A DNA stretch of 47,255 nucleotides from a virus (IMGVR_UViG_3300042890_003920), one strand, 5' to 3'. Shown: positions 15,590 through 29,428, numbered from the stretch's first letter. The notes: generated by a model from the letters alone, not told the origin. Made by a program: numbers and translations.

Positions 15590-16489
15590 ATGATAGATAA
15601 AATAGAACTATTTGGAAAACAAATAGAATTAAAGACACATAATTGTCACTTATTCGATCAAGAAGCACAGCCCGTTGAAGAGCCTTATATAAATTTTTAT
15701 ATAAGAACTAAGTTCTGTAATGCGAAATGTGCTTTTTGTACTTATGCAGATGATGCAAGTAAATACTCAGCTAAGAAACTACAAGAAGTATTTGAAGAAA
15801 TTTCTCCTAAAATTAAAATTAGAAAGGTTGCCATTTCAGGTGGTGAACCTACTTTATATTGGGATAACTTCGTAAATATAGTAGAGTTGGCTAAAAAGTA
15901 TGCACCTGATGCAGAATTAAGTATGAATACTGATGGATTTCGTTGGAAACAATTATTTGAAGATCCAATTTACAAAGAGTTTGATTATATTCAATTATCT
16001 CGTCACCATTATGATGATGCTATAAATGATGAAATCTTTAAATGTAAAACTCCTACATTTGATGAAATTAAATGGGCGGCTGGACTTCAAACACATCCAC
16101 ATCAAATACAATTTAGATGTAATTTAATTAAAGGTTATGTTGATGATAAAGATAAAGTATTTAATTTTTTAAACTGGGCTAATTCAGTTGATATAAATGA
16201 TGTTGGTTTAGTTTCTTTAATGCCAATAAATGATTACTCAAAAGAGAATTATATTTATTTTCATATTAAAGAATTGATTGGAGATAATTTCTTTTTAACA
16301 AAAGAATGGAAAAGACACGGTGGAGGTTGTGAGTGTTTTAACTATGTTTATATGCCACCTGATGAAACATTTAGAAGACCGATGAAAGTATATCATAAGA
16401 ATACTTTTGCACCGTCAGACATCAAGGAAACACTTGTATTTGATGGCCAGAATGTAAGATTAGGATTCGATGGTGATATAATATACTAA
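15590..16489 (+). CDS. Radical SAM protein, unknown reaction
   Basis: CNAKCAFC (CxxxCxxC), SGGEPTL, MNTDG. Confidence 0.9.
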   Translation: MIDKIELFGKQIELKTHNCHLFDQEAQPVEEPYINFYIRTKFCNAKCAFCTYADDASKYSAKKLQEVFEEISPKIKIRKVAISGGEPTLYWDNFVNIVELAKKYAPDAELSMNTDGFRWKQLFEDPIYKEFDYIQLSRHHYDDAINDEIFKCKTPTFDEIKWAAGLQTHPHQIQFRCNLIKGYVDDKDKVFNFLNWANSVDINDVGLVSLMPINDYSKENYIYFHIKELIGDNFFLTKEWKRHGGGCECFNYVYMPPDETFRRPMKVYHKNTFAPSDIKETLVFDGQNVRLGFDGDIIY

Positions 16490-16492
16490 AAG

Positions 16493-16521
16493 AAAAAGTC
16501 TCAATAATTTGAGACTTTTTT
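16493..16521. terminator. Bidirectional intrinsic terminator
   Basis: AAAAAGTCTCAA/TTGAGACTTTTT stem. Confidence 0.75.
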
Positions 16522-16525
16522 ATTT

Positions 16526-16810
16526 TTAACAACCGCTTCTTTGGTAACCACCTCCGCTACCACATCCATCATTATGATAGTAGGTTGGTGCAGGTTGAGG
16601 TGCTGGTGCAGGTCTTACTGGTGCAGCTGGTGCAACATAAGGCTCTATATCGTGTTCAACACAAAATTCCATATAAGTTGCTTTTTGTACGTCTCCAGTT
16701 TTAACTAGATCATAAACTGCGGCATTAAATTTTTCTTCAAGTGTTGTGCCTTGGTATCTTTTGCTATAAAACGCATAAAGTTTATCTAATAAGTCTATTT
16801 CTTGTGACAT
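16526..16810 (-). CDS. Small protein with Pro/Ala linker and C-terminal GCGSGGGYQRSGC tail
   Basis: ORF track; TAATATATA at 16830-16839 on the minus strand. Confidence 0.75.
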   Translation of the reverse strand: MSQEIDLLDKLYAFYSKRYQGTTLEEKFNAAVYDLVKTGDVQKATYMEFCVEHDIEPYVAPAAPVRPAPAPQPAPTYYHNDGCGSGGGYQRSGC

Positions 16811-16829: not shown

Positions 16830-17849
16830 TTATATATTAAAATTGCTTTTTATAATTTCAACACTTGCATCAAATCTTTCTCTCCAGTTTCCACCAATTT
16901 CTACAAAATGACAACCTCTATTTTCAAGTTCATTTTTAATAACTTCATAGTGTTTTTGTCTTTCTTCTAAAAAGTTTCTTGTTCCATCTTGTACTGCATC
17001 ACAATCTGGTTTTAAAAGAATATATAAATCATACTTTTTCTTTTCAGAAAGTTTATTTAAAAACCAATCAGTTTCTTTTTGATGTTCTTCATTAGGACAA
17101 TACATATCTAAAAATAAATAAGTTGTAATGTCTTCGGTATCACAGAATAATAATTTGTTTGATCTTTTAATTGTCCAATCCTCTAATGTTTGTCTTCCTT
17201 CAGAAATTGGAATGAAATCCTCAACACCAACTTTATTACCATTTGCTTCATAAACTATTCTACCATATTCATCAACAAAATTAGTTTGAAACCAATTCGC
17301 TAATTCTTTTGTTAGAGTTGATTTACCAACGGATTCTGGTCCCATTATTGCAATTCGTTTTACAAAGAAAGGTTTTAATTCATTAGAAATAAAATCCCAT
17401 TTCTCAAAAGGATTTTCTCTAACTTCTGTTCCTGATACAGGAACGGTTTTTCTTTCTTTATCTACTAAGAAATGTTCTACTCCTAAATACTCTGCAAATC
17501 CATCACCATAATCTTCTGATGTAAATACAACATCTAGTTCATCAACTAAATTATATATCTGTGGTACCCAATAAGAATAGAATTCTTCTAATGTATCACA
17601 TTCATAATCGTGTTGAGGTAGTCCAGTATCATCAAACTGATATACGGTTACATTAGGATTGTTTTGGTAAGTCTTTTTTAGTCCAAGATATCTTACATCA
17701 CCTGGAATAGATTGTGTCTTATTATGAGAGATAATGACGTGTACGTGATCACAATTCTCAATTGCTGTATCAATTAGATGAAGATGTCCTAAGTGTAAAG
17801 GATACATTTTACCTAAAACTAAACCGTTTTTATATTTTTTCATTTTCAT
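16830..17849 (-). CDS. nadR: NadR-type bifunctional NMN adenylyltransferase / nicotinamide-riboside kinase (no HTH)
   Basis: GKMYPLHLGH (HxGH), VSGTEVR, Walker A GPESVGKST, EYGR, FCDTE. Confidence 0.9.
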   Translation of the reverse strand: MKMKKYKNGLVLGKMYPLHLGHLHLIDTAIENCDHVHVIISHNKTQSIPGDVRYLGLKKTYQNNPNVTVYQFDDTGLPQHDYECDTLEEFYSYWVPQIYNLVDELDVVFTSEDYGDGFAEYLGVEHFLVDKERKTVPVSGTEVRENPFEKWDFISNELKPFFVKRIAIMGPESVGKSTLTKELANWFQTNFVDEYGRIVYEANGNKVGVEDFIPISEGRQTLEDWTIKRSNKLLFCDTEDITTYLFLDMYCPNEEHQKETDWFLNKLSEKKKYDLYILLKPDCDAVQDGTRNFLEERQKHYEVIKNELENRGCHFVEIGGNWRERFDASVEIIKSNFNI

Positions 17850-17882
17850 TTATTTATATATACATAAAAATTTATATTCATT

Positions 17883-18404
17883 ATGTCACTAATAAGAAGA
17901 CAAGACAAAGATTCAAGACTAACTGTAGAAGAAATGGATTCTAACTTAGAATATTTAGAAAGCTTAGCTCTTACTACTTCTACTGGTGCAACTGGACCTA
18001 TTGGACCAACTGGACCTATTGGACCAACTGGACCAAGTGCTGATTACTTAGTTTATACTGCACTTATAACACAAGCGGCTACTGGATCAACACCAAGTGC
18101 AACTATATTAAAAAATACAATTGGTGAAATAACTTGGAGTTATGTTAGTCCAGGTTTGTATGAAATGAGCTCTGATGCTGCTTTTGTTGCAGGAAAAACA
18201 TATTTGAATAATCAAGTCTTTCATCTTACCACCTATATTGATCCTCTCGATCCTCTAAACATTATTGAAACTGCTTATCTTGCTTTTCTTAGAAGAACTG
18301 ATATAAATACTATTCAACTTAATACCGGTTTTTTCGATATGGGACTCGGACCAATTGATGGACTCCTAACAAATCATTCTTTAGAGGTTAGAGTTTATTT
18401 ATAA
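17883..18404 (+). CDS. Short fibre-like virion protein (shared anchor motif, collagen-like GPT repeats)
   Basis: RRQDKDSRLTVEEMDSNLEYLESLAL; GATGPIGPTGPIGPTGPS. Confidence 0.7.
   Translation: MSLIRRQDKDSRLTVEEMDSNLEYLESLALTTSTGATGPIGPTGPIGPTGPSADYLVYTALITQAATGSTPSATILKNTIGEITWSYVSPGLYEMSSDAAFVAGKTYLNNQVFHLTTYIDPLDPLNIIETAYLAFLRRTDINTIQLNTGFFDMGLGPIDGLLTNHSLEVRVYL
17991..18035 (+). repeat. 18-bp tandem repeat x2.5 (collagen-like Gly-X-Y)
   Basis: ACTGGACCTATTGGACCA repeated. Confidence 0.9.
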
Positions 18405-18930
18405 TTTTCCATTTTTTTAATCCGGTTATTGCTAAAATTAAAAACACAAAGTAAGTAATTGATGATAAATATTGTTCTTCATTTAAGAAGAATATTATAA
18501 ATAAAATATCTGCAATTATCCAATAAAACCAAGTATCTATTTTTCTCTTTGCTAAAAGTGTCATTGCGATTAAACTAAATGACGTTGTTATACCATCAAA
18601 ATAAGGTGATTTATCACCAGTCATTATCAGTACACTTGTTATAAGTGTTGTGAGTAAAAAACTAGAAATAACTAATATGTTTCTATCATGTTTTTCTAAC
18701 CATTCGACTTTAGTGTTTTTAATTACATCCCATTTACTCCAACCATATATTGCTTGTATAAAAAAGGGAATTTGGAGAAACATGTTTCCCCAAATATGAT
18801 TTTCGTAAAAGAATATACTATAAAAAGTAACTCCTATTATCGCAGTTGGCCATGTAAGTATATTATTTTTAACTGCAAATACTACAGATAATAAACTAAA
18901 AATGACCGCTATGATCTCTATAATATTCAT
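18388..18930 (-). CDS. pnuC: PnuC-family nicotinamide riboside transporter
   Basis: WPTAIIG, LQIPFFIQAIYGWSKW, PYFDGITTSFSLIA..LLAKRKIDTWFYWIIAD. Confidence 0.9.
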   Translation of the reverse strand: MNIIEIIAVIFSLLSVVFAVKNNILTWPTAIIGVTFYSIFFYENHIWGNMFLQIPFFIQAIYGWSKWDVIKNTKVEWLEKHDRNILVISSFLLTTLITSVLIMTGDKSPYFDGITTSFSLIAMTLLAKRKIDTWFYWIIADILFIIFFLNEEQYLSSITYFVFLILAITGLKKWKIINKL

Positions 18931-20888
18931 TAGAATTTATAATTAAATGTCATATAAAAGTTTGTACCAGCGGTGTAGTAAAAACTTCTAGTCACACCAT
19001 CAGTAGTACCACCGGTTGTCCAATTTTTATCTAATATATTATTTACAAATAATCTAATAGAAGTATCATCACTAAGATTGTAAGAAATACTTGTATCAAC
19101 TAAATGATATTCTGGACAAATAAATGTATTGTTATTGTCTAAGAAAGATTGTGCAACATATTTATAATTGGCACCTACTTCAATTTTACCTAAATTATAA
19201 TTTGTAAATAAGTTAGAGATAAAGTTAGGAGTTAAAACCGGTTCAGACTTGACATTATCTAACCAAACTTTATTTTTAGAAAAATTAAATGATGAACCAA
19301 CTTCTAATTTTTTTAATTTTAATGTTAGATCACCTTCTATCCCTAATCTATAACTTTTATCTGCATTAATTCCTAATGCAATTCCCATAGGATTTAGTTG
19401 TCCAATTGATACAATTTCATTGTTAAAGTACATATAATAACCATTTAATGAACCATTTAATTTTTTAGATATAATTTTAGTACCAACTTCAAGATCTCTA
19501 ACGGTCTCAGGTCTAACATTTGCTATTTGGTCAATTGTTGTTGGATTATCATTCATACCAAATAGATTTGTTCTACTTGGTTCTCTTGAAGACTTACCAA
19601 AACTAATATAAGGTTTAAATAAATCACTTCTTTGATATGAGATACCGAATGAATAGTTATGAAAGTTATATTCAAATAGTTTTCCACCAAGATCTACTGA
19701 GTTATCACTCATATAACTAAATGTATTATTTCTTAGTTGATAATCACCGTTAACAATCCAATCTAATCCTATTTTATAGGAAAATTTAGTAAACAAAGTT
19801 GCGTCTAATTTAGATCCTTTATTTGTATAGTCGATAAAACCTTCGGTTGAACCGATATGTTGTCTATCAAATGTGTTTATTGTGGCACCCGGTTGAATTG
19901 TAAGTCCGTTTTCAGAATGTTTAACATTAAAATAAATTCCCGAATTTTTAGAGTTTAGTTTTAGGTTTTGTATGGTATTCATACCAGGAAAGTCATAATT
20001 ACCATCAATGTGTGTAAAGTAAGTACTCAAATTAAATATTGTTTGTTCAGAGAACTTACCGGCTACTTGTAATTGATAAATTCCATTTGTGAAATCATCA
20101 TATTGAGGTCTCCCACCGTATGTAACTAAAACGTTTGTTGTAACTGGTTCACCTTCTGGAACAGGTAGCCATGCTTGACCATTTTCAGTTTTACCAAATA
20201 CTGCATTAAATCTAACCGATGTTACTTCATTTCTATATCCTAAAGATGTTGAGAAGGATGTACTTCTACCAGATGAAAAGTCTCTAAATCCATCAGTATA
20301 AGTTTCTGATGCTCTAAAAGTTGCACCAAATCCTTTTTTAGTAACACCAGTATTGTATTTAACTGAGGTTCTTCTTGAATTGAAACTACCTACCATAGAA
20401 GTAATCTCACCGGATTTATTATCAAATGGACTTGTTAAATCCATATTTACTAGTCCTACATAAGAACTCGCACCATTTGCAGATACACCAGCCCCCCTGA
20501 TAATTTGAACAGAACGTAAACTATTAAGTAAATCGGTATAATTAGAAGTATAAACGGCTAAGTCCTCACCATCATTTAATGGTACACCATTTAATGTATA
20601 GTTGATACGATTTTGACCCATACCTCTTAAAGTAAAATATGAATATCCAAATGGAGTACCATTATCACTTTGAGCAACTACTGATGGAGTTGTTGAAAAG
20701 AAATAAGGAGTTTCTTGAGCGAAGTAATTTTTTACAGAGTCCATCTGTATTGTTTTTGAAGAACTAGACTCTAATTTAAACCTTGACGCAGTTATTGTAA
20801 CTTCATCTAAAGTTTTAATTGAGTCATTTTGCGAATAAATGGTTGTAGTAAATAGTACTACAATAGCCATTAAAAGTCTTTTTATCAT
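18930..20888 (-). CDS. TonB-dependent outer-membrane receptor (similar to the Bacteroidota thiamine-type TBDRs that accompany Pnu genes)
   Basis: Signal peptide IYS|Q, TonB box TLDEVTITA, plug LRGMGQNRINYTLNGVPLND...VQIIRGAG, C-terminal NYKF. Confidence 0.9.
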   Translation of the reverse strand: MIKRLLMAIVVLFTTTIYSQNDSIKTLDEVTITASRFKLESSSSKTIQMDSVKNYFAQETPYFFSTTPSVVAQSDNGTPFGYSYFTLRGMGQNRINYTLNGVPLNDGEDLAVYTSNYTDLLNSLRSVQIIRGAGVSANGASSYVGLVNMDLTSPFDNKSGEITSMVGSFNSRRTSVKYNTGVTKKGFGATFRASETYTDGFRDFSSGRSTSFSTSLGYRNEVTSVRFNAVFGKTENGQAWLPVPEGEPVTTNVLVTYGGRPQYDDFTNGIYQLQVAGKFSEQTIFNLSTYFTHIDGNYDFPGMNTIQNLKLNSKNSGIYFNVKHSENGLTIQPGATINTFDRQHIGSTEGFIDYTNKGSKLDATLFTKFSYKIGLDWIVNGDYQLRNNTFSYMSDNSVDLGGKLFEYNFHNYSFGISYQRSDLFKPYISFGKSSREPSRTNLFGMNDNPTTIDQIANVRPETVRDLEVGTKIISKKLNGSLNGYYMYFNNEIVSIGQLNPMGIALGINADKSYRLGIEGDLTLKLKKLEVGSSFNFSKNKVWLDNVKSEPVLTPNFISNLFTNYNLGKIEVGANYKYVAQSFLDNNNTFICPEYHLVDTSISYNLSDDTSIRLFVNNILDKNWTTGGTTDGVTRSFYYTAGTNFYMTFNYKF

Positions 20889-20910
20889 ATAAATAGTTTT
20901 AATTTAGGAA

Positions 20911-20918
20911 CAAAGATA
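20911..20918 (-). promoter_or_regulatory. Bacteroidota -7 element TATCTTTG for the TBDR-pnuC(-nadR) operon
   Basis: TAnnTTTG 23 nt upstream of the ATG. Confidence 0.7.
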
Positions 20919-20988: not shown

Positions 20989-22335
20989 ATGGCAGTAAAA
21001 TACAGAAAAGATAGTGAAGCAAGACTATCAGTTTCAGAACTGGATGGAAATTTTCAATATATTGAAGATGAGTTAGGAAATTTAAGTTCAGACATTTCTC
21101 AATTAGAAGTTATTGTTGAAAGTTTAGATCTTGCAGGTTTAACTGCATCAGTTCTTGGTTTAGAAGGTGATGTTGCAGGTTTAACTTTGGATGTTGCCAG
21201 TGCAACTGCATCAATTGCTATTTTAAACACAAACTTGGCATCGGTTACTGCATCGATTACTACTTTAACTACTTTAGATGTATTAAAAGAATTTAAACCA
21301 GGATCAGTTGGTGAGAAAGTATCATTTACAAAAGTGTCAGGCACTAATCCTGCTACTAACAAAGATGTTATTATTCCTGGTGAATTAGAAATTACTCGTG
21401 GTGCTACTAGTGGTGGCGGTATTTATAATATTGCTGTAGAAAATAATTTTAACTCTTCTGTATCTCCAGAGAATACATTTTGGAATACTCAGTATGTAGA
21501 TAATGTAAATACCAGTTGGGCTCCATTATGGGATATAGAAAATAGAACATATACAAATTGGAGAAATGCTGGTGATGGAGTAGATGATTATGTAATACCA
21601 CAATATGTAGGAATGCCTACAATCATGAAGTATGATGATGGTGATACCACTATTCGTTATTGGTTGATCATGTTTACCGAATGGGGAGTTGGTGATTATG
21701 ATGAATATGGTTTTGCATATGATCGTTATGAAATATTCCCATCAGTATATTTTGAAAAAGAAAATTATGATGATGATGCGGTAGATATAATTTCAGAAGG
21801 TGTTCACATAAAAAGAGACAATCAGGGAGGACTGTATAACGCGGTAACTGATCCAGATGAAGCTACGGGTGCGTCACCTAGAAATACAAAATGGAACAGC
21901 TCTTATATAGATTCAAGACCTGGTTATTCAGGATGGGATGATCTTAGTAATTTAGAGTCAAGAGTTTATACAAGTTTTGTAGATGCACTAGATGGAAGTG
22001 TAGGTAATAATATCAATACAGACCTTGTTATGTGGGACATGACCACAGACTTGTATTATAAAATTGATTTTGATTCTTGGACTCAAGGTAACGGTGGTAA
22101 CAGTAATGGTGGTGGATTCGCTTATTACAGAACTGTAATTCCTCAATCTAATGGTATTAAGTTTGCAGATGGTACTGTTATGAATACCGCACCAGAAAAT
22201 GGAGTAACCGGAGATTTTAACTTAGTATTTTTCAATACTAGCGAAAAAGGCGGTTCTCTTTCAGCAGGAACATTTAGTTTTACTAATGGTATTTTAACAT
22301 CCTATAGTAATATTGTACCTATAGATTTCGGATAG
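20989..22335 (+). CDS. Fibre-like virion protein: anchor motif, coiled coil, tandem-duplicated beta domain
   Basis: RKDSEARLSVSELDGNFQYIE; heptads; two copies of F.K...D.I...V.I.R...GG.YN...SP.NT.WN..Y...W...GFAY.R. Confidence 0.7.
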   Translation: MAVKYRKDSEARLSVSELDGNFQYIEDELGNLSSDISQLEVIVESLDLAGLTASVLGLEGDVAGLTLDVASATASIAILNTNLASVTASITTLTTLDVLKEFKPGSVGEKVSFTKVSGTNPATNKDVIIPGELEITRGATSGGGIYNIAVENNFNSSVSPENTFWNTQYVDNVNTSWAPLWDIENRTYTNWRNAGDGVDDYVIPQYVGMPTIMKYDDGDTTIRYWLIMFTEWGVGDYDEYGFAYDRYEIFPSVYFEKENYDDDAVDIISEGVHIKRDNQGGLYNAVTDPDEATGASPRNTKWNSSYIDSRPGYSGWDDLSNLESRVYTSFVDALDGSVGNNINTDLVMWDMTTDLYYKIDFDSWTQGNGGNSNGGGFAYYRTVIPQSNGIKFADGTVMNTAPENGVTGDFNLVFFNTSEKGGSLSAGTFSFTNGILTSYSNIVPIDFG

Positions 22336-24613: not shown

Positions 24614-26071
24614 TTATTTTTCTAATTTCAAAATTTCTGAACTATTTTTTCTAAGTTCTTCACACAATTCCTTATTATCATTTAACGATTGTCCGTAAGA
24701 AGGAATCATTTCCTTTAATTTTTCTGTCCAATCTTCATTATTAAAACATTTTTCAATCAAGTTTAACATAATAGATGTTGCAGTTGATGCACCAGGAGAA
24801 GCCCCTAATAAACCAGCTATTGAACCATCTGTTGATGTAATAACTTCTGTACCAAATTCTAATATACCTTTTCCTTCACCATCTTTTTTAATAACTTGAA
24901 CTCTTTGTCCTGCAGTCTCTAAAACCCAGTCTTTTGATTTTGCAGTTGGAACATATTCTCTTAAAGCATTCATTCTATCGTCTCCAGATTGACGAACTTG
25001 GTCAATTAGATACTTTGTTAGTGGAATGTTTTTTAAGCCAGCACCGATCATTGGAATGATGTTATTCAATCTAATTGATGTAAATAAGTCCCAATAAGAA
25101 CCGTTTTTAAGAAATTTTGTTGAAAATCCTGCATAAGGTCCAAACAATAACTCTTTTTTACCATTTATCATACGACTATCTATATGAGGAACAGACATCG
25201 GTGGAGCACCAACACCTGCTTTACCATATACTTTAGCATTATGTTTTTCGATAACTTCTCTATTAGTACAACGCAACCATTGACCACTAACTGGAAATCC
25301 ACCATAACCTTCAATCTCTGGAATACCAGATTTCTCTAATAAAGGAAGTGAACCACCACCCGCGCCGATAAATACAAAGTCAGATGTTATTTTTCGTTTT
25401 TCATTTGTGGATAAATCTTGGACTTTAATGATCCATTTACCTTCTTTATTTTTTAATTTTTTTACTTCGTGATTAAAATGTAGTTCTACACCATCTTGTG
25501 ATTTAAGATAATCAAACATACTTCTTGTTAAATTACCAAAATTTACATCAGTACCGATTTCATTTTTAGTTGCAGCAACTTTTTGATTTTCTTTACGACC
25601 TTCCATAACCAACGGAACCCAAGATTTGATTGTATCAAAATCTTCTGAAAATTCCATATCCTGAAATAAGATATTTGGTTTTAATGTATTATATCTTGTT
25701 TTTAAATAATTTACATTATCTTGTCCCCATACAAAACTCATATGTGGACTTTGTTTAATAAAAAATTCTGGTTTAACAATTAGGTTATTCTTAACTAAGT
25801 AAGACCAAAATTGTTTAGATACTTCATATTGTTCTGCAATTTGAATAGCTTTATCTGGATTTATTGAACCATCTGAATTTTGTGGTGTATAGTTTAATTC
25901 ACAAAATGCAGAGTGACCAGTACCTGCATTATTCCAAGCATCAGAGCTTTCTGCTGCTGCGGAATCTAATCTCTCAAAGATTTGAATAGTTAAATCAGGA
26001 TTTAATTGTTTAAGGATTGTTCCTAAGGTGGCACTCATAATTCCTGCCCCAATAAGTGTTATATTTTTCAT
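24614..26071 (-). CDS. mqo: Malate:quinone oxidoreductase
   Basis: LIGAGIMSATLG, ESSDAWNNAGTGHSAFCELNYTP, VYGKAGVGAPPMSVPHIDSR, LLGASPGASTA. Confidence 0.97.
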   Translation of the reverse strand: MKNITLIGAGIMSATLGTILKQLNPDLTIQIFERLDSAAAESSDAWNNAGTGHSAFCELNYTPQNSDGSINPDKAIQIAEQYEVSKQFWSYLVKNNLIVKPEFFIKQSPHMSFVWGQDNVNYLKTRYNTLKPNILFQDMEFSEDFDTIKSWVPLVMEGRKENQKVAATKNEIGTDVNFGNLTRSMFDYLKSQDGVELHFNHEVKKLKNKEGKWIIKVQDLSTNEKRKITSDFVFIGAGGGSLPLLEKSGIPEIEGYGGFPVSGQWLRCTNREVIEKHNAKVYGKAGVGAPPMSVPHIDSRMINGKKELLFGPYAGFSTKFLKNGSYWDLFTSIRLNNIIPMIGAGLKNIPLTKYLIDQVRQSGDDRMNALREYVPTAKSKDWVLETAGQRVQVIKKDGEGKGILEFGTEVITSTDGSIAGLLGASPGASTATSIMLNLIEKCFNNEDWTEKLKEMIPSYGQSLNDNKELCEELRKNSSEILKLEK

Positions 26072-29349: not shown

Positions 29350-29358
29350 TGAGATATG

Positions 29359-29428
29359 AGGCAGAAAAAGGAATCGAACCTCTGTGTAGGAACTTGCGGT
29401 TCCTCGCCTAACACTCAGCCATTCTGCC
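29359..29428 (-). tRNA. tRNA-Cys(GCA), atypical
   Basis: Acceptor GGCAGAA/TTCTGCC, discriminator U, anticodon stem AGGAA/TTCCT with loop CCGCAAG, T-loop TTCGATT; promoter TATCTTTG at 29441-29448. Confidence 0.85.

What the first reader, a model, noticed from the sequence alone, without database searches (positions are those of the whole stretch)
16830..20918. Phage TBDR-PnuC-NadR operon: candidate NAD+ resupply by importing precursor across both membranes
Seen: a TAnnTTTG promoter, then a TonB-dependent receptor, pnuC coupled to it (TAATG at 18930), then nadR with intact HxGH and Walker A motifs. Known: PnuC imports nicotinamide riboside, and NadR converts NR to NMN to NAD+. Vibrio phage KVP40 carries pnuC/nadR-like genes. 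Phage NARP1 (Adps+Namat) and NARP2 (Nampt+Nmnat) rebuild NAD+ against Thoeris/SIR2/DSR-type defences. In Bacteroidota this receptor type normally sits in a thiamine TBDR-Pnu-thiamine pyrophosphokinase operon under a TPP riboswitch; here the kinase is NadR and no riboswitch is visible. Inference: a repurposed uptake system giving a nicotinamide/ADPR-independent, import-based third NAD+ route. A phage-encoded TBDR in such a pathway is undescribed to my knowledge.
Basis: partly seen in the sequence, partly recalled or inferred. Interest (0 to 1): 0.9.

Follow-up and report, generated by a model that had tools for sequence, protein, structure and literature searches.

The report
Megaphage NAD-precursor import operon
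A giant freshwater phage of Bacteroidota carries an outer-membrane receptor, the inner-membrane carrier PnuC and the enzyme NadR, which together should import a vitamin-B3 riboside and turn it into NAD+; the PnuC-NadR core is already published as the phage pathway NARP3, and the receptor is the new part.

Summary
The minus strand carries an intact TonB-dependent receptor (20888-18930), pnuC (18930-18388, TAATG overlap) and an HTH-less bifunctional nadR (17849-16830).

- a plus-strand 173-aa collagen-like ORF inserted between pnuC and nadR;
- a conserved 94-aa fourth gene;
- a terminator that closes the unit.

NAD-precursor import is well supported, but this is not a repurposed thiamine system. 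Receptor-PnuC-NadR in this order occurs in 36 of the 80 nearest cellular loci, mostly Bacteroidota. The receptor and Pnu trees separate it from a TPP-riboswitch receptor-Pnu pair in the same Prevotella genome.

The "third route" (PnuC+NadR) was published in August 2026 as NARP3. Phage TonB receptors had been noticed before, called SusC in Mar_Mega_1 and surveyed in an October 2026 preprint, but were not tied to NAD+.

New here:
- the three-gene form recurs in huge-phage contigs (21 of 23 IMG/VR loci);
- full-length NadR is rare in Bacteroidota (8 of 301 genomes);
- the receptor gene has a different history from nadR within the phage clade (AU p = 2e-7).

This scan has already reported the same operon on other DNA. 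Verdict: a new variant of a known kind, of moderate interest. No function was tested.

The parts
20911..20918 (-). Bacteroidota-type -7 promoter box TAtcTTTG, 22 nt upstream of the receptor ATG
   Evidence: Read directly. The TAT[AC]TTTG class is enriched just upstream of ORF starts. TANNTTTG alone is not above chance.
18930..20888 (-). TonB-dependent outer-membrane transporter, 652 aa: signal peptide, TonB box LDEVTITA (nt 20787-20810), plug, 22-strand barrel, C-terminal Phe
   Evidence: Pfam Plug and barrel. AF2 model pLDDT 82, pTM 0.82. Best PDB match is PqqU 9c4o, TM 0.84. Lies in the NadR-linked TBDR clade. dN/dS 0.21 against L105.
18388..18930 (-). PnuC-family carrier, 180 aa, seven-TM core, WxxWxxxD motif at nt 18508-18531; start overlaps the receptor stop (TAATG)
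   Evidence: PF04973 1e-44 and TIGR01528 above cut-off. 4QTN match 1e-06. Falls in the NadR-linked Pnu clade. Overlap read directly. dN/dS 0.21.
17883..18404 (+). Inserted opposite-strand ORF, 173 aa, with a collagen-like GPxGPx run (nt 17985-18035); not part of the pathway but splits pnuC from nadR
   Evidence: Absent in relative L105, with a duplicated junction. Its N-terminus resembles those of the 448-aa and 1446-aa window proteins. Atlas leads to phage collagen/fibre proteins are weak.
16830..17849 (-). NadR without HTH domain: NMN adenylyltransferase (HLGH nt 17784-17795; SGTEVR nt 17418-17438) plus ribosylnicotinamide kinase (Walker A nt 17316-17342; lid DGTR nt 16977-16988)
   Evidence: dN/dS 0.14.
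16526..16810 (-). Conserved 94-aa ORF of unknown function, fourth gene of the unit
   Evidence: Homologues sit in the same position in L105 (96%), L106 (43%) and L002 (45%). dN/dS 0.10. No Pfam or Atlas hit.
16493..16520 (-). Intrinsic terminator hairpin plus T-run (bidirectional; also ends the convergent radical-SAM gene)

Best explanation
The window belongs to a huge phage (relatives are 480-650 kb) of freshwater Bacteroidota. The phage carries a complete host-type uptake and conversion chain for an NAD+ precursor.

The proposed chain, all steps inferred from homology and context:
1. The receptor is made early from a host-type promoter, inserted into the host outer membrane, and uses the host TonB system to pull nicotinamide riboside into the periplasm. 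The substrate could instead be NMN or NAD+, trimmed to the riboside in the periplasm.
2. PnuC lets the riboside diffuse across the inner membrane.
3. NadR traps it by phosphorylation to NMN and adenylates it to NAD+.

The net effect is a larger or protected NAD+ pool in the infected cell, independent of nicotinamide or ADP-ribose. This is NARP3 (PnuC+NadR) with an added outer-membrane gate.

The benefit could be either or both of two things: survival of NAD+-depleting defences, or supply for the phage's own NAD+-using enzymes. These two cannot be separated here.

The module came from a Bacteroidota operon of the same three genes. It has since been reshuffled among phages, and the receptor gene has a history of its own.
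For: Gene integrity:
- All three genes are intact with their catalytic and transport motifs.
- They are under purifying selection against a close relative, dN/dS 0.10-0.21.

Conserved linkage:
- TBDR>PnuC>NadR occurs in 36 of the 80 nearest cellular loci and TBDR>NadR in 9 more. These include Zobellia, Flavobacterium, Chitinophaga, Mucilaginibacter, Prevotella and Porphyromonas.
- In IMG/VR, 21 of 23 viral loci with this receptor have NadR downstream and 16 have PnuC.
- The same order is found in LR756502, LR745206 and LR756501 and in contigs of 484-624 kb.

Specificity:
- The receptor and the Pnu protein cluster with NadR-linked homologues, in clades of 100* and 99/96* support.
- A TPP-riboswitch TBDR-Pnu pair from a genome that also has the NadR operon falls outside these clades.
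- Pnu carriers work by facilitated diffusion plus trapping by the cognate kinase (PMC5749112). Here that kinase is the NadR RNK domain.

NAD context in relatives:
- LR756501 has PncB - NadE - TBDR - PnuC - NadR - isochorismatase-family gene.
- A 410-kb contig has Prs - NAMPT - ADP-ribosylglycohydrolase - NADAR - Tpt1 - TBDR - NadR.
- A 484-kb phage contig has a Pfam Tad6 (type I Thoeris inhibitor) domain protein two genes after NadR.
- Three of four related megaphages encode an NAD+-dependent ligase domain.

Experimental precedent:
- Phage PnuC+NadR imports NR, makes NAD+ and defeats Sir2-HerA (PMC13464706).
- The window NadR matches that enzyme's structure sequence 9x6f at 3e-35.

Host pathway:
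- Full-length NadR was found in only 8 of 301 sampled Bacteroidota genomes. Most hosts would therefore lack the pathway the phage brings.

Not a misassembly:
- The gene GC (0.26-0.30) and GC3 (0.14-0.20) match the window.
- The same flanks recur in independent assemblies: Mqo, DUF7275, RNase H and the radical-SAM gene.
Against: - No member of this receptor clade has a tested substrate, so the ligand (NR, NMN or NAD+) is a guess from its neighbours.
- 25 of the 80 nearest cellular loci have neither PnuC nor NadR within 5 kb. These are mostly Gemmatimonadota, and 7 of them lack enough downstream sequence to tell. The clade is therefore not exclusively NAD-linked.
- In this phage nadR is cut off from pnuC by an antisense gene, and no TAnnTTTG box lies upstream of nadR on its strand. 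Co-expression would need read-through.
- A phage-made receptor needs the host BAM and TonB-ExbBD systems and time to reach the outer membrane.
- The window PnuC is not close to the NARP3 carrier: no Escherichia or Salmonella phage hit at E <= 1e-5.
- The counter-defence role rests on analogy and on one Tad6 neighbour in a relative.
Confidence: 0.7

Rival explanations
1. The receptor imports something other than an NAD precursor (thiamine, riboflavin, another nucleoside or cofactor, a metal chelate) and only happens to sit next to PnuC-NadR.
For: - The best structural match is a small-cofactor transporter, PqqU, and weak NCBIfam hits go to siderophore and B12 receptors.
- 25 of 80 cellular homologue loci have no PnuC or NadR nearby.
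- The WxxWxxxD form of the Pnu motif is shared with thiamine PnuT.
Against: - The gene order is conserved across phyla and across phage lineages, with translational coupling to pnuC.
- The TPP-riboswitch receptor and Pnu are outgroups in both trees.
- The D form of the motif is the norm in NadR-linked cellular PnuCs, so it does not indicate thiamine.
- There is no riboswitch, and the leader has no room for one.
- NAD gene clusters surround the receptor in relatives.
Confidence: 0.1
2. The receptor is a surface protein used for something other than transport, such as superinfection exclusion, masking or a decoy for competing phages or bacteriocins that use TonB receptors. PnuC-NadR works on its own as plain NARP3.
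For: - The receptor gene has a history different from nadR within the phage clade. The AU test gives p = 2e-7. Pair identities are, for example, NadR 74% against TBDR 34%, whereas in cellular pairs the TBDR is the better conserved.
- dS of the receptor is twice that of pnuC and nadR against the closest relative.
- TonB receptors are common phage receptors (for example FhuA with T5, PDB 8b14, seen).
Against: - The plug, the TonB box and many pore-lining residues are conserved with cellular homologues: 60 invariant columns among 15 sequences.
- dN/dS is 0.21.
- The stop/start overlap with pnuC and the same three-gene operon in free-living bacteria argue for a transport role.
Confidence: 0.07
3. 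In this particular phage the pathway is uncoupled or decaying, because the inserted antisense gene blocks transcription into nadR.
For: - The 538-bp insert carries an opposite-strand ORF.
- No recognisable promoter box lies in front of nadR.
Against: - The insertion duplicated the junction, so the pnuC 3' end and the nadR 5' end both stay intact.
- nadR and the downstream 94-aa ORF show dN/dS of 0.14 and 0.10.
- Other relatives also carry inserts inside the operon, which suggests they are tolerated.
Confidence: 0.08
4. The segment is host chromosome joined to phage DNA by misassembly.
For: All three genes have their closest annotated relatives in Bacteroidota genomes.
Against: - Composition is the same as the rest of the window.
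- The same flanking phage genes appear in independent assemblies from different sources, including a 623,658-bp contig.
- The operon is present in four deposited megaphage genomes.
- The stretch is held by runs from about 10 studies.
Confidence: 0.02

Closest known systems
NARP3: Bas30_87 (PnuC-like) plus Bas30_86 (HTH-less NadR) of Escherichia phage TrudiRoth and T5-like Salmonella phages (PMC13464706)
   Same: It is a phage-borne PnuC-family carrier next to an HTH-less bifunctional NadR. The predicted chemistry is NR import, then NMN, then NAD+. The window NadR matches the Bas30_86 structure sequence at 3e-35.
   Different: It has an outer-membrane TonB-dependent receptor as the first, translationally coupled gene. 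The host phylum is Bacteroidota, not Enterobacteriaceae. The PnuC is not detectably close to the enterobacterial-phage carriers. The phages are megaphages. The module descends from a three-gene cellular operon. No function was tested.
Cellular Bacteroidota TBDR-PnuC-NadR operon (e.g. Zobellia uliginosa, Flavobacterium sp., Chitinophaga spp., a Prevotella MAG); not found described in the papers searched
   Same: The three genes, the order and the tight spacing are the same, and there is no riboswitch. All three window proteins have the same nearest cellular relatives: L010, L011, L012 and L023.
   Different: The window copy is only 33-43% identical to them. It sits in a phage-dominated clade of 17 phage and 5 cellular rows. 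It is mosaic and carries inserts.
Bacteroides/Prevotella thiamine system: TPP riboswitch - OMthi receptor - PnuT (with TPK)
   Same: The architecture is a TonB receptor followed by a Pnu carrier with a trapping kinase.
   Different: There is no TPP riboswitch, the kinase is NadR, and both transport proteins lie outside the TPP-linked lineage.
Haemophilus influenzae NR salvage (OmpP2 porin, NadN/e(P4), PnuC, NadR)
   Same: The PnuC plus NadR trapping logic is the same. The NadR fold and motifs match 1lw7 at 5e-39.
   Different: Outer-membrane passage is by an energised receptor instead of a porin. No periplasmic nucleotidase gene lies in the unit.
'SusC' TonB receptor reported in Mar_Mega_1 and LR745206 (PMC9723777); 22-stranded OMPs of huge phages (preprint 10.64898/2026.10.24.761521)
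   Same: The same kind of gene occurs in the same phage group, and the window receptor is homologous to the LR745206 receptor.
   Different: It is not SusC-like: it is 652 aa, has no N-terminal extension and no SusD partner, and matches no SusC/RagA model. The linkage to PnuC-NadR gives a different predicted substrate.
PqqU/YncD small-cofactor TonB transporter (PDB 9c4o)
   Same: It is the best structural match to the model, TM 0.84, and is similar in size.
   Different: Sequence identity is 16%. The similarity is one of fold, not a functional assignment.

Membership tests
NARP3 (phage PnuC + NadR) | Phage-encoded PnuC-family transporter | tested here: met
   PF04973 1e-44 and TIGR01528 83 bits against a cut-off of 42. 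Phage context.
NARP3 (phage PnuC + NadR) | HTH-less NadR with both RNK and NMNAT domains and their catalytic motifs | tested here: met
   The protein starts 8 residues before the NMNAT core, so there is no HTH.
NARP3 (phage PnuC + NadR) | The two genes form one adjacent co-oriented cassette | tested here: inconclusive
   They are on the same strand but 538 bp apart, with an antisense ORF between them. In relatives L001, L002 and L105 they abut or overlap.
NARP3 (phage PnuC + NadR) | Sequence kinship of the carrier with Bas30_87-type carriers | tested here: not met
   tblastn of the window PnuC finds no Escherichia or Salmonella phage at E <= 1e-5. The NadR does match them.
NARP3 (phage PnuC + NadR) | NR import, NAD+ restoration and rescue from NADase defence | not testable with these tools
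   Needs uptake, enzyme and plaque assays.
TonB-dependent transporter | N-terminal plug inside a 22-strand barrel | tested here: met
   Pfam Plug and barrel. AF2 pLDDT 82. Foldseek probability 1.00 to many TBDTs.
TonB-dependent transporter | Signal peptide, TonB box, C-terminal aromatic residue | tested here: met
   Read in the translation. TonB-box L27 is nearly invariant in alignment A1.
TonB-dependent transporter | Energised by TonB-ExbBD | not testable with these tools
   No TonB gene was found in three of four related megaphages; one, LR756501, has a TonB_C gene.
SusC/RagA | About 1000 aa with N-terminal extension, SusD-like partner downstream, SusC/RagA signature | tested here: not met
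   652 aa, only Plug and barrel domains, no SusC model among the NCBIfam hits, and the next gene is pnuC.
Thiamine OMthi-PnuT system | TPP riboswitch upstream | tested here: not met
   No Rfam hit, and only 22 nt lie between the promoter box and the ATG. Positive control: a TPP riboswitch was found before the Prevotella TBDR-Pnu pair.
Thiamine OMthi-PnuT system | Receptor and Pnu cluster with TPP-linked homologues | tested here: not met
   The TPP-linked pair lies outside the 100* and 99/96* clades that hold the window proteins.
Pnu transporter, NR-specific (PnuC) | WxxWxxxD/N binding motif and gate tryptophans | tested here: met
   WFYWIIAD at aa 134-141; W at aa 64/67 and 174. The motif is defined in PMC5749112. 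D versus N does not separate substrates.
Pnu transporter, NR-specific (PnuC) | Cognate trapping kinase is a ribosylnicotinamide kinase | tested here: met
   The NadR RNK domain is in the same unit.
Pnu transporter, NR-specific (PnuC) | Transports NR | not testable with these tools
   Needs a transport assay.

The most novel reading that the evidence does not exclude
Megaphages of Bacteroidota run a three-compartment version of NARP3. A phage-made, TonB-energised outer-membrane transporter captures scarce NR, NMN or NAD+ from lake water and feeds PnuC and NadR. This would be the first TonB transporter assigned to a vitamin-B3 riboside or nucleotide in any organism. The receptor gene is exchanged among phage lineages independently of the cytoplasmic enzyme, as expected if the surface component has to match the host envelope or escape enemies that use it.
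Probability: 0.5. Interest if true: 0.65.

Novelty: new variant of a known kind. Interest (0 to 1): 0.5.

Why it matters
- If the receptor does import an NAD precursor, NAD+-rebuilding counter-measures extend to Bacteroidota phages and across the outer membrane.
- It would give the first candidate TonB-dependent transporter for nicotinamide riboside or NMN. This is also relevant to vitamin-B3 exchange in Bacteroidota, where full-length NadR is rare.
- It would correct the 'SusC, carbohydrate uptake' label given to this gene in megaphage genomes.
- The mosaic history of the receptor shows that a metabolic operon inside phages is rebuilt piece by piece.

Tried and rejected
- **RNA evidence:** no listed holder of the whole stretch is on record as RNA. 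Contigs of four RNA or RNA-like runs covered mainly the generic collagen repeat. Beyond that there were a few short pieces of nadR and the receptor, partly from relatives. Transcription is not shown either way.
- **Exact look-up of the window receptor:** no record in the contig collection.
- **Tad6 in four related megaphages:** nothing found, and the control genomes did not ring either, so the result is uninformative.
- **D versus N in the Pnu WxxWxxxD/N motif as a substrate marker:** rejected, because NadR-linked cellular PnuCs almost all have D.
- **Raw count of TANNTTTG as evidence for a promoter:** rejected, since it is at chance level.
- **Protein Atlas on the 94-aa ORF:** no usable hit.
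- **Literature:** searches for a described cellular TBDR-PnuC-NadR operon found none in the library. This is not proof that none exists. My own recollection that the NrtR paper showed one was wrong.
- **PurZ reading of the purA-like gene:** rejected. It scores 576 bits on the PurA model and 131 on PurZ, against a cut-off of 300.

Full report
**What is there**

The minus strand holds a run of genes:
- a 652-aa TonB-dependent receptor, 20888..18930;
- a 180-aa PnuC, 18930..18388;
- a 339-aa NadR, 17849..16830;
- a 94-aa ORF, 16810..16526.

Pfam, NCBIfam and PDB sequence searches identify the first three without ambiguity.

The receptor has a signal peptide, a TonB box (LDEVTITA), a plug, a barrel and a terminal Phe. 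An AlphaFold model built on a 15-sequence alignment has pLDDT 82 and pTM 0.82. It matches solved TonB transporters, best PqqU at TM 0.84.

NadR starts directly with the adenylyltransferase core, so it has no HTH. It keeps HLGH, SGTEVR, the Walker A and B motifs and the DGTR lid.

The receptor stop and the pnuC start overlap as TAATG. A TAtcTTTG box lies 22 nt before the receptor ATG. The loose pattern TANNTTTG is at chance frequency in this 29% GC window. The TAT[AC]TTTG subclass sits just upstream of ORF starts far more often than chance, 6 of 22, p = 2e-5. A hairpin with a T-run directly after the 94-aa ORF closes the unit. No Rfam family other than a tRNA reaches threshold.

pnuC and nadR are not adjacent. 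Between them lies a 538-bp stretch with a plus-strand ORF of 173 aa containing a collagen-like GPxGPx run.

In the closest relative found (L105: NadR 90%, PnuC 87% identical), pnuC and nadR overlap and the insert is absent. The alignment shows that the junction was duplicated, so both reading frames stayed whole.

Relatives carry other small inserts inside the operon, so this is a tolerated insertion site. No promoter box precedes nadR on its strand, so its expression probably depends on read-through.

**Is it a phage, and which?**

- No whole genome is held for the window.
- Window proteins hit PHROG families, including a baseplate wedge.
- The only near DNA match among deposited phages is the 634,780-bp uncultured phage LR745206.
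- Close homologues of the receptor (66-84% identity) lie on metagenome contigs of up to 648,731 bp.
- The same neighbours recur in independent assemblies: Mqo, DUF7275, RNase H and the radical-SAM gene.
- Gene composition equals that of the window.
- Runs holding the stretch are lake, river and estuary metagenomes from about ten studies.
- The host-type promoter box, a T9SS sorting domain in a window protein and the nearest cellular relatives all point to Bacteroidota hosts.

Misassembly is therefore very unlikely.

**Where the module comes from**

A pattern scan of one genome per prokaryotic species returned 80 loci with receptor homologues. By tblastn:

| Content of the locus | Loci |
|---|---|
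| Receptor, PnuC and full-length NadR in this order | 36 |
| Same three genes in another order | 1 |
| Receptor followed directly by NadR | 9 |
| PnuC with a kinase-only protein (mostly Gemmatimonadota) | 8 |
| PnuC only | 1 |
| Neither PnuC nor NadR | 25 |

Two Bacteroidota MAGs reached through the protein database show the same operon.

Five of these genomes each hold a second Pnu gene.

In trees rooted on that pair:
- all NadR-linked and phage receptors form one clade (100*);
- the window PnuC sits in a phage clade (98/95*) that is sister to cellular operon PnuCs, far from the TPP-linked Pnu.

So the phage did not rewire a thiamine system. It carries a distinct, pre-existing three-gene operon. 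That operon is uncommon: a full-length NadR was found in 8 of 301 sampled Bacteroidota genomes, while kinase-only relatives were found in about 50.

**How widespread in phages**

- The same order occurs in LR756502, LR745206 and LR756501/LR756503. Lak phages have the receptor and a distant NadR-like gene.
- In IMG/VR, 23 viral loci carry a receptor relative. NadR follows in 21 and PnuC is detectable in 16, on contigs up to 483 kb.
- Earlier reports of this scan describe the same operon on other genomes. My results agree with them.

**Function**

Pnu carriers are facilitators whose direction is set by the cognate kinase (PMC5749112). Here the kinase is the NR kinase domain of NadR, so the predicted path is NR to NMN to NAD+.

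Phage PnuC plus NadR has been shown to do exactly this and to defeat Sir2-HerA, under the name NARP3 (PMC13464706). The window NadR matches the NARP3 enzyme's structure sequence.

The receptor's substrate is inferred only from linkage, but the linkage is strong and goes beyond PnuC-NadR:
- In LR756501 the receptor lies between PncB and NadE on one side and PnuC, NadR and an isochorismatase-family gene on the other.
- On a 410-kb contig it follows Prs, NAMPT, an ADP-ribosylglycohydrolase, NADAR and Tpt1.

Two observations bear on the purpose:
- A Tad6 (Thoeris inhibitor) domain protein lies two genes after NadR in a 484-kb relative.
- NAD+-dependent ligase domains occur in three of four related megaphages.

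The first fits counter-defence and the second fits supply. Neither decides.

**A mosaic module**

The NadR and receptor trees share a 22-row clade of 17 phage and 5 cellular rows, 100* in both, but disagree inside it. Imposing the NadR tree's nine-phage clade on the receptor alignment costs 272 log-likelihood units (AU p = 2.4e-7).

Pair identities against the window:

| Relative | NadR | Receptor |
|---|---|---|
| L133 | 74% | 34% |
| L002 | 62% | 35% |
| L107 | 36% | 45% |

In cellular pairs the receptor is on average 5.8 points better conserved than NadR (SD 4.1).

Even against the closest relative, the receptor's synonymous distance (0.88) is twice that of pnuC and nadR (0.38, 0.42). All genes are under purifying selection, dN/dS 0.10-0.21.

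The receptor gene has therefore been exchanged among phage lineages separately from the enzyme.

**What is known and what is not**

- The PnuC-NadR route in phages is published (NARP3). Jumbo-phage NAD genes, including pnuC, have been surveyed (PMC11662467).
- The receptor in this phage group was reported as a SusC for carbohydrate uptake (PMC9723777). That label does not fit a 652-aa protein without a SusC signature or a SusD partner.
- A preprint of October 2026 lists phage 22-stranded outer-membrane proteins, shows a Lak receptor transcribed, and mentions NMN-transport neighbours.
- I found no paper that assigns an NAD-precursor role to this receptor, in phages or in bacteria.

**Verdict**

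This is a real and well-preserved variant of NARP3 with an outer-membrane first step. It was inherited from a minority Bacteroidota operon and reshuffled among megaphages. The mechanism is inferred and nothing was tested. Novelty is limited to the receptor and its evolution, and interest is moderate.

Noticed in passing
window 17883-18404 (+), 20989-22335 (+), 36530-40870 (-): The collagen-like 173-aa ORF, the 448-aa ORF divergent from the receptor and the 1446-aa fibre-like protein share an N-terminal motif of about 30 aa (R..D..RLSVEEMD.N..Y.E). L105 has a 187-aa protein with the same start at the position of the 448-aa ORF. This may be a common virion-attachment module of a dispersed fibre family.
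   Followed up: partly
window 24614-26071 (-): A full-length malate:quinone oxidoreductase (Pfam Mqo 3e-238) with its own TAtcTTTG box. It is conserved at the same place in relative L105.
   Followed up: partly
window 40964-42235 (-): An adenylosuccinate synthase of the ordinary PurA type (576 bits on the PurA model). It is not PurZ (131 bits against a cut-off of 300), despite the PHROG name.
   Followed up: yes
window 15590-16489 (+) versus L002 9775-10674: The radical-SAM gene next to the operon is 78% identical in DNA to that of LR745206 but is inverted relative to the operon between the two phages.
   Followed up: partly
window, ORFs of alignment A2: The window also encodes a giant LRR protein, a protein with a T9SS C-terminal sorting domain, a short HisRS-like protein, R2K ATP-grasp proteins, a nucleoside 2-deoxyribosyltransferase-like protein and a weak OprF-membrane-domain hit. 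A tRNA-Cys lies at 29358-29428.
   Followed up: no
L107 8786-9577: A 263-aa protein with a Pfam Tad6 (type I Thoeris inhibitor) domain (1.5e-12) lies two genes downstream of NadR in a 484,699-bp phage-like contig.
   Followed up: partly
L003 3049-11522 (LR756501): A complete NAD cluster: PncB, two unknown ORFs, NadE, receptor, two unknown ORFs, PnuC, NadR, one unknown ORF, an isochorismatase-family (PncA-like) gene. The same phage encodes a TonB_C domain protein elsewhere (L108).
   Followed up: partly
L009 627-13998: On a 410-kb contig the receptor and NadR, without PnuC, follow Prs, NAMPT, DUF4291, an ADP-ribosylglycohydrolase, NADAR and Tpt1, and precede a bpMoxR/bpX conflict-system cluster.
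   Followed up: no
Bacteroidota genomes; L100, L102: Kinase-only NadR relatives next to a second Pnu gene are much commoner in Bacteroidota than full-length NadR. Several lie in open frames of 730-800 aa, consistent with fusion to DUF4301.
   Followed up: no
L004 8166-9461 (Lak-A1): In Lak-A1 the gene after the receptor is a DUF4407 protein readable only with TAG as a sense codon (7 in-frame TAG). No PnuC was detected there, and a distant NadR-like match lies about 5 kb further on.
   Followed up: partly
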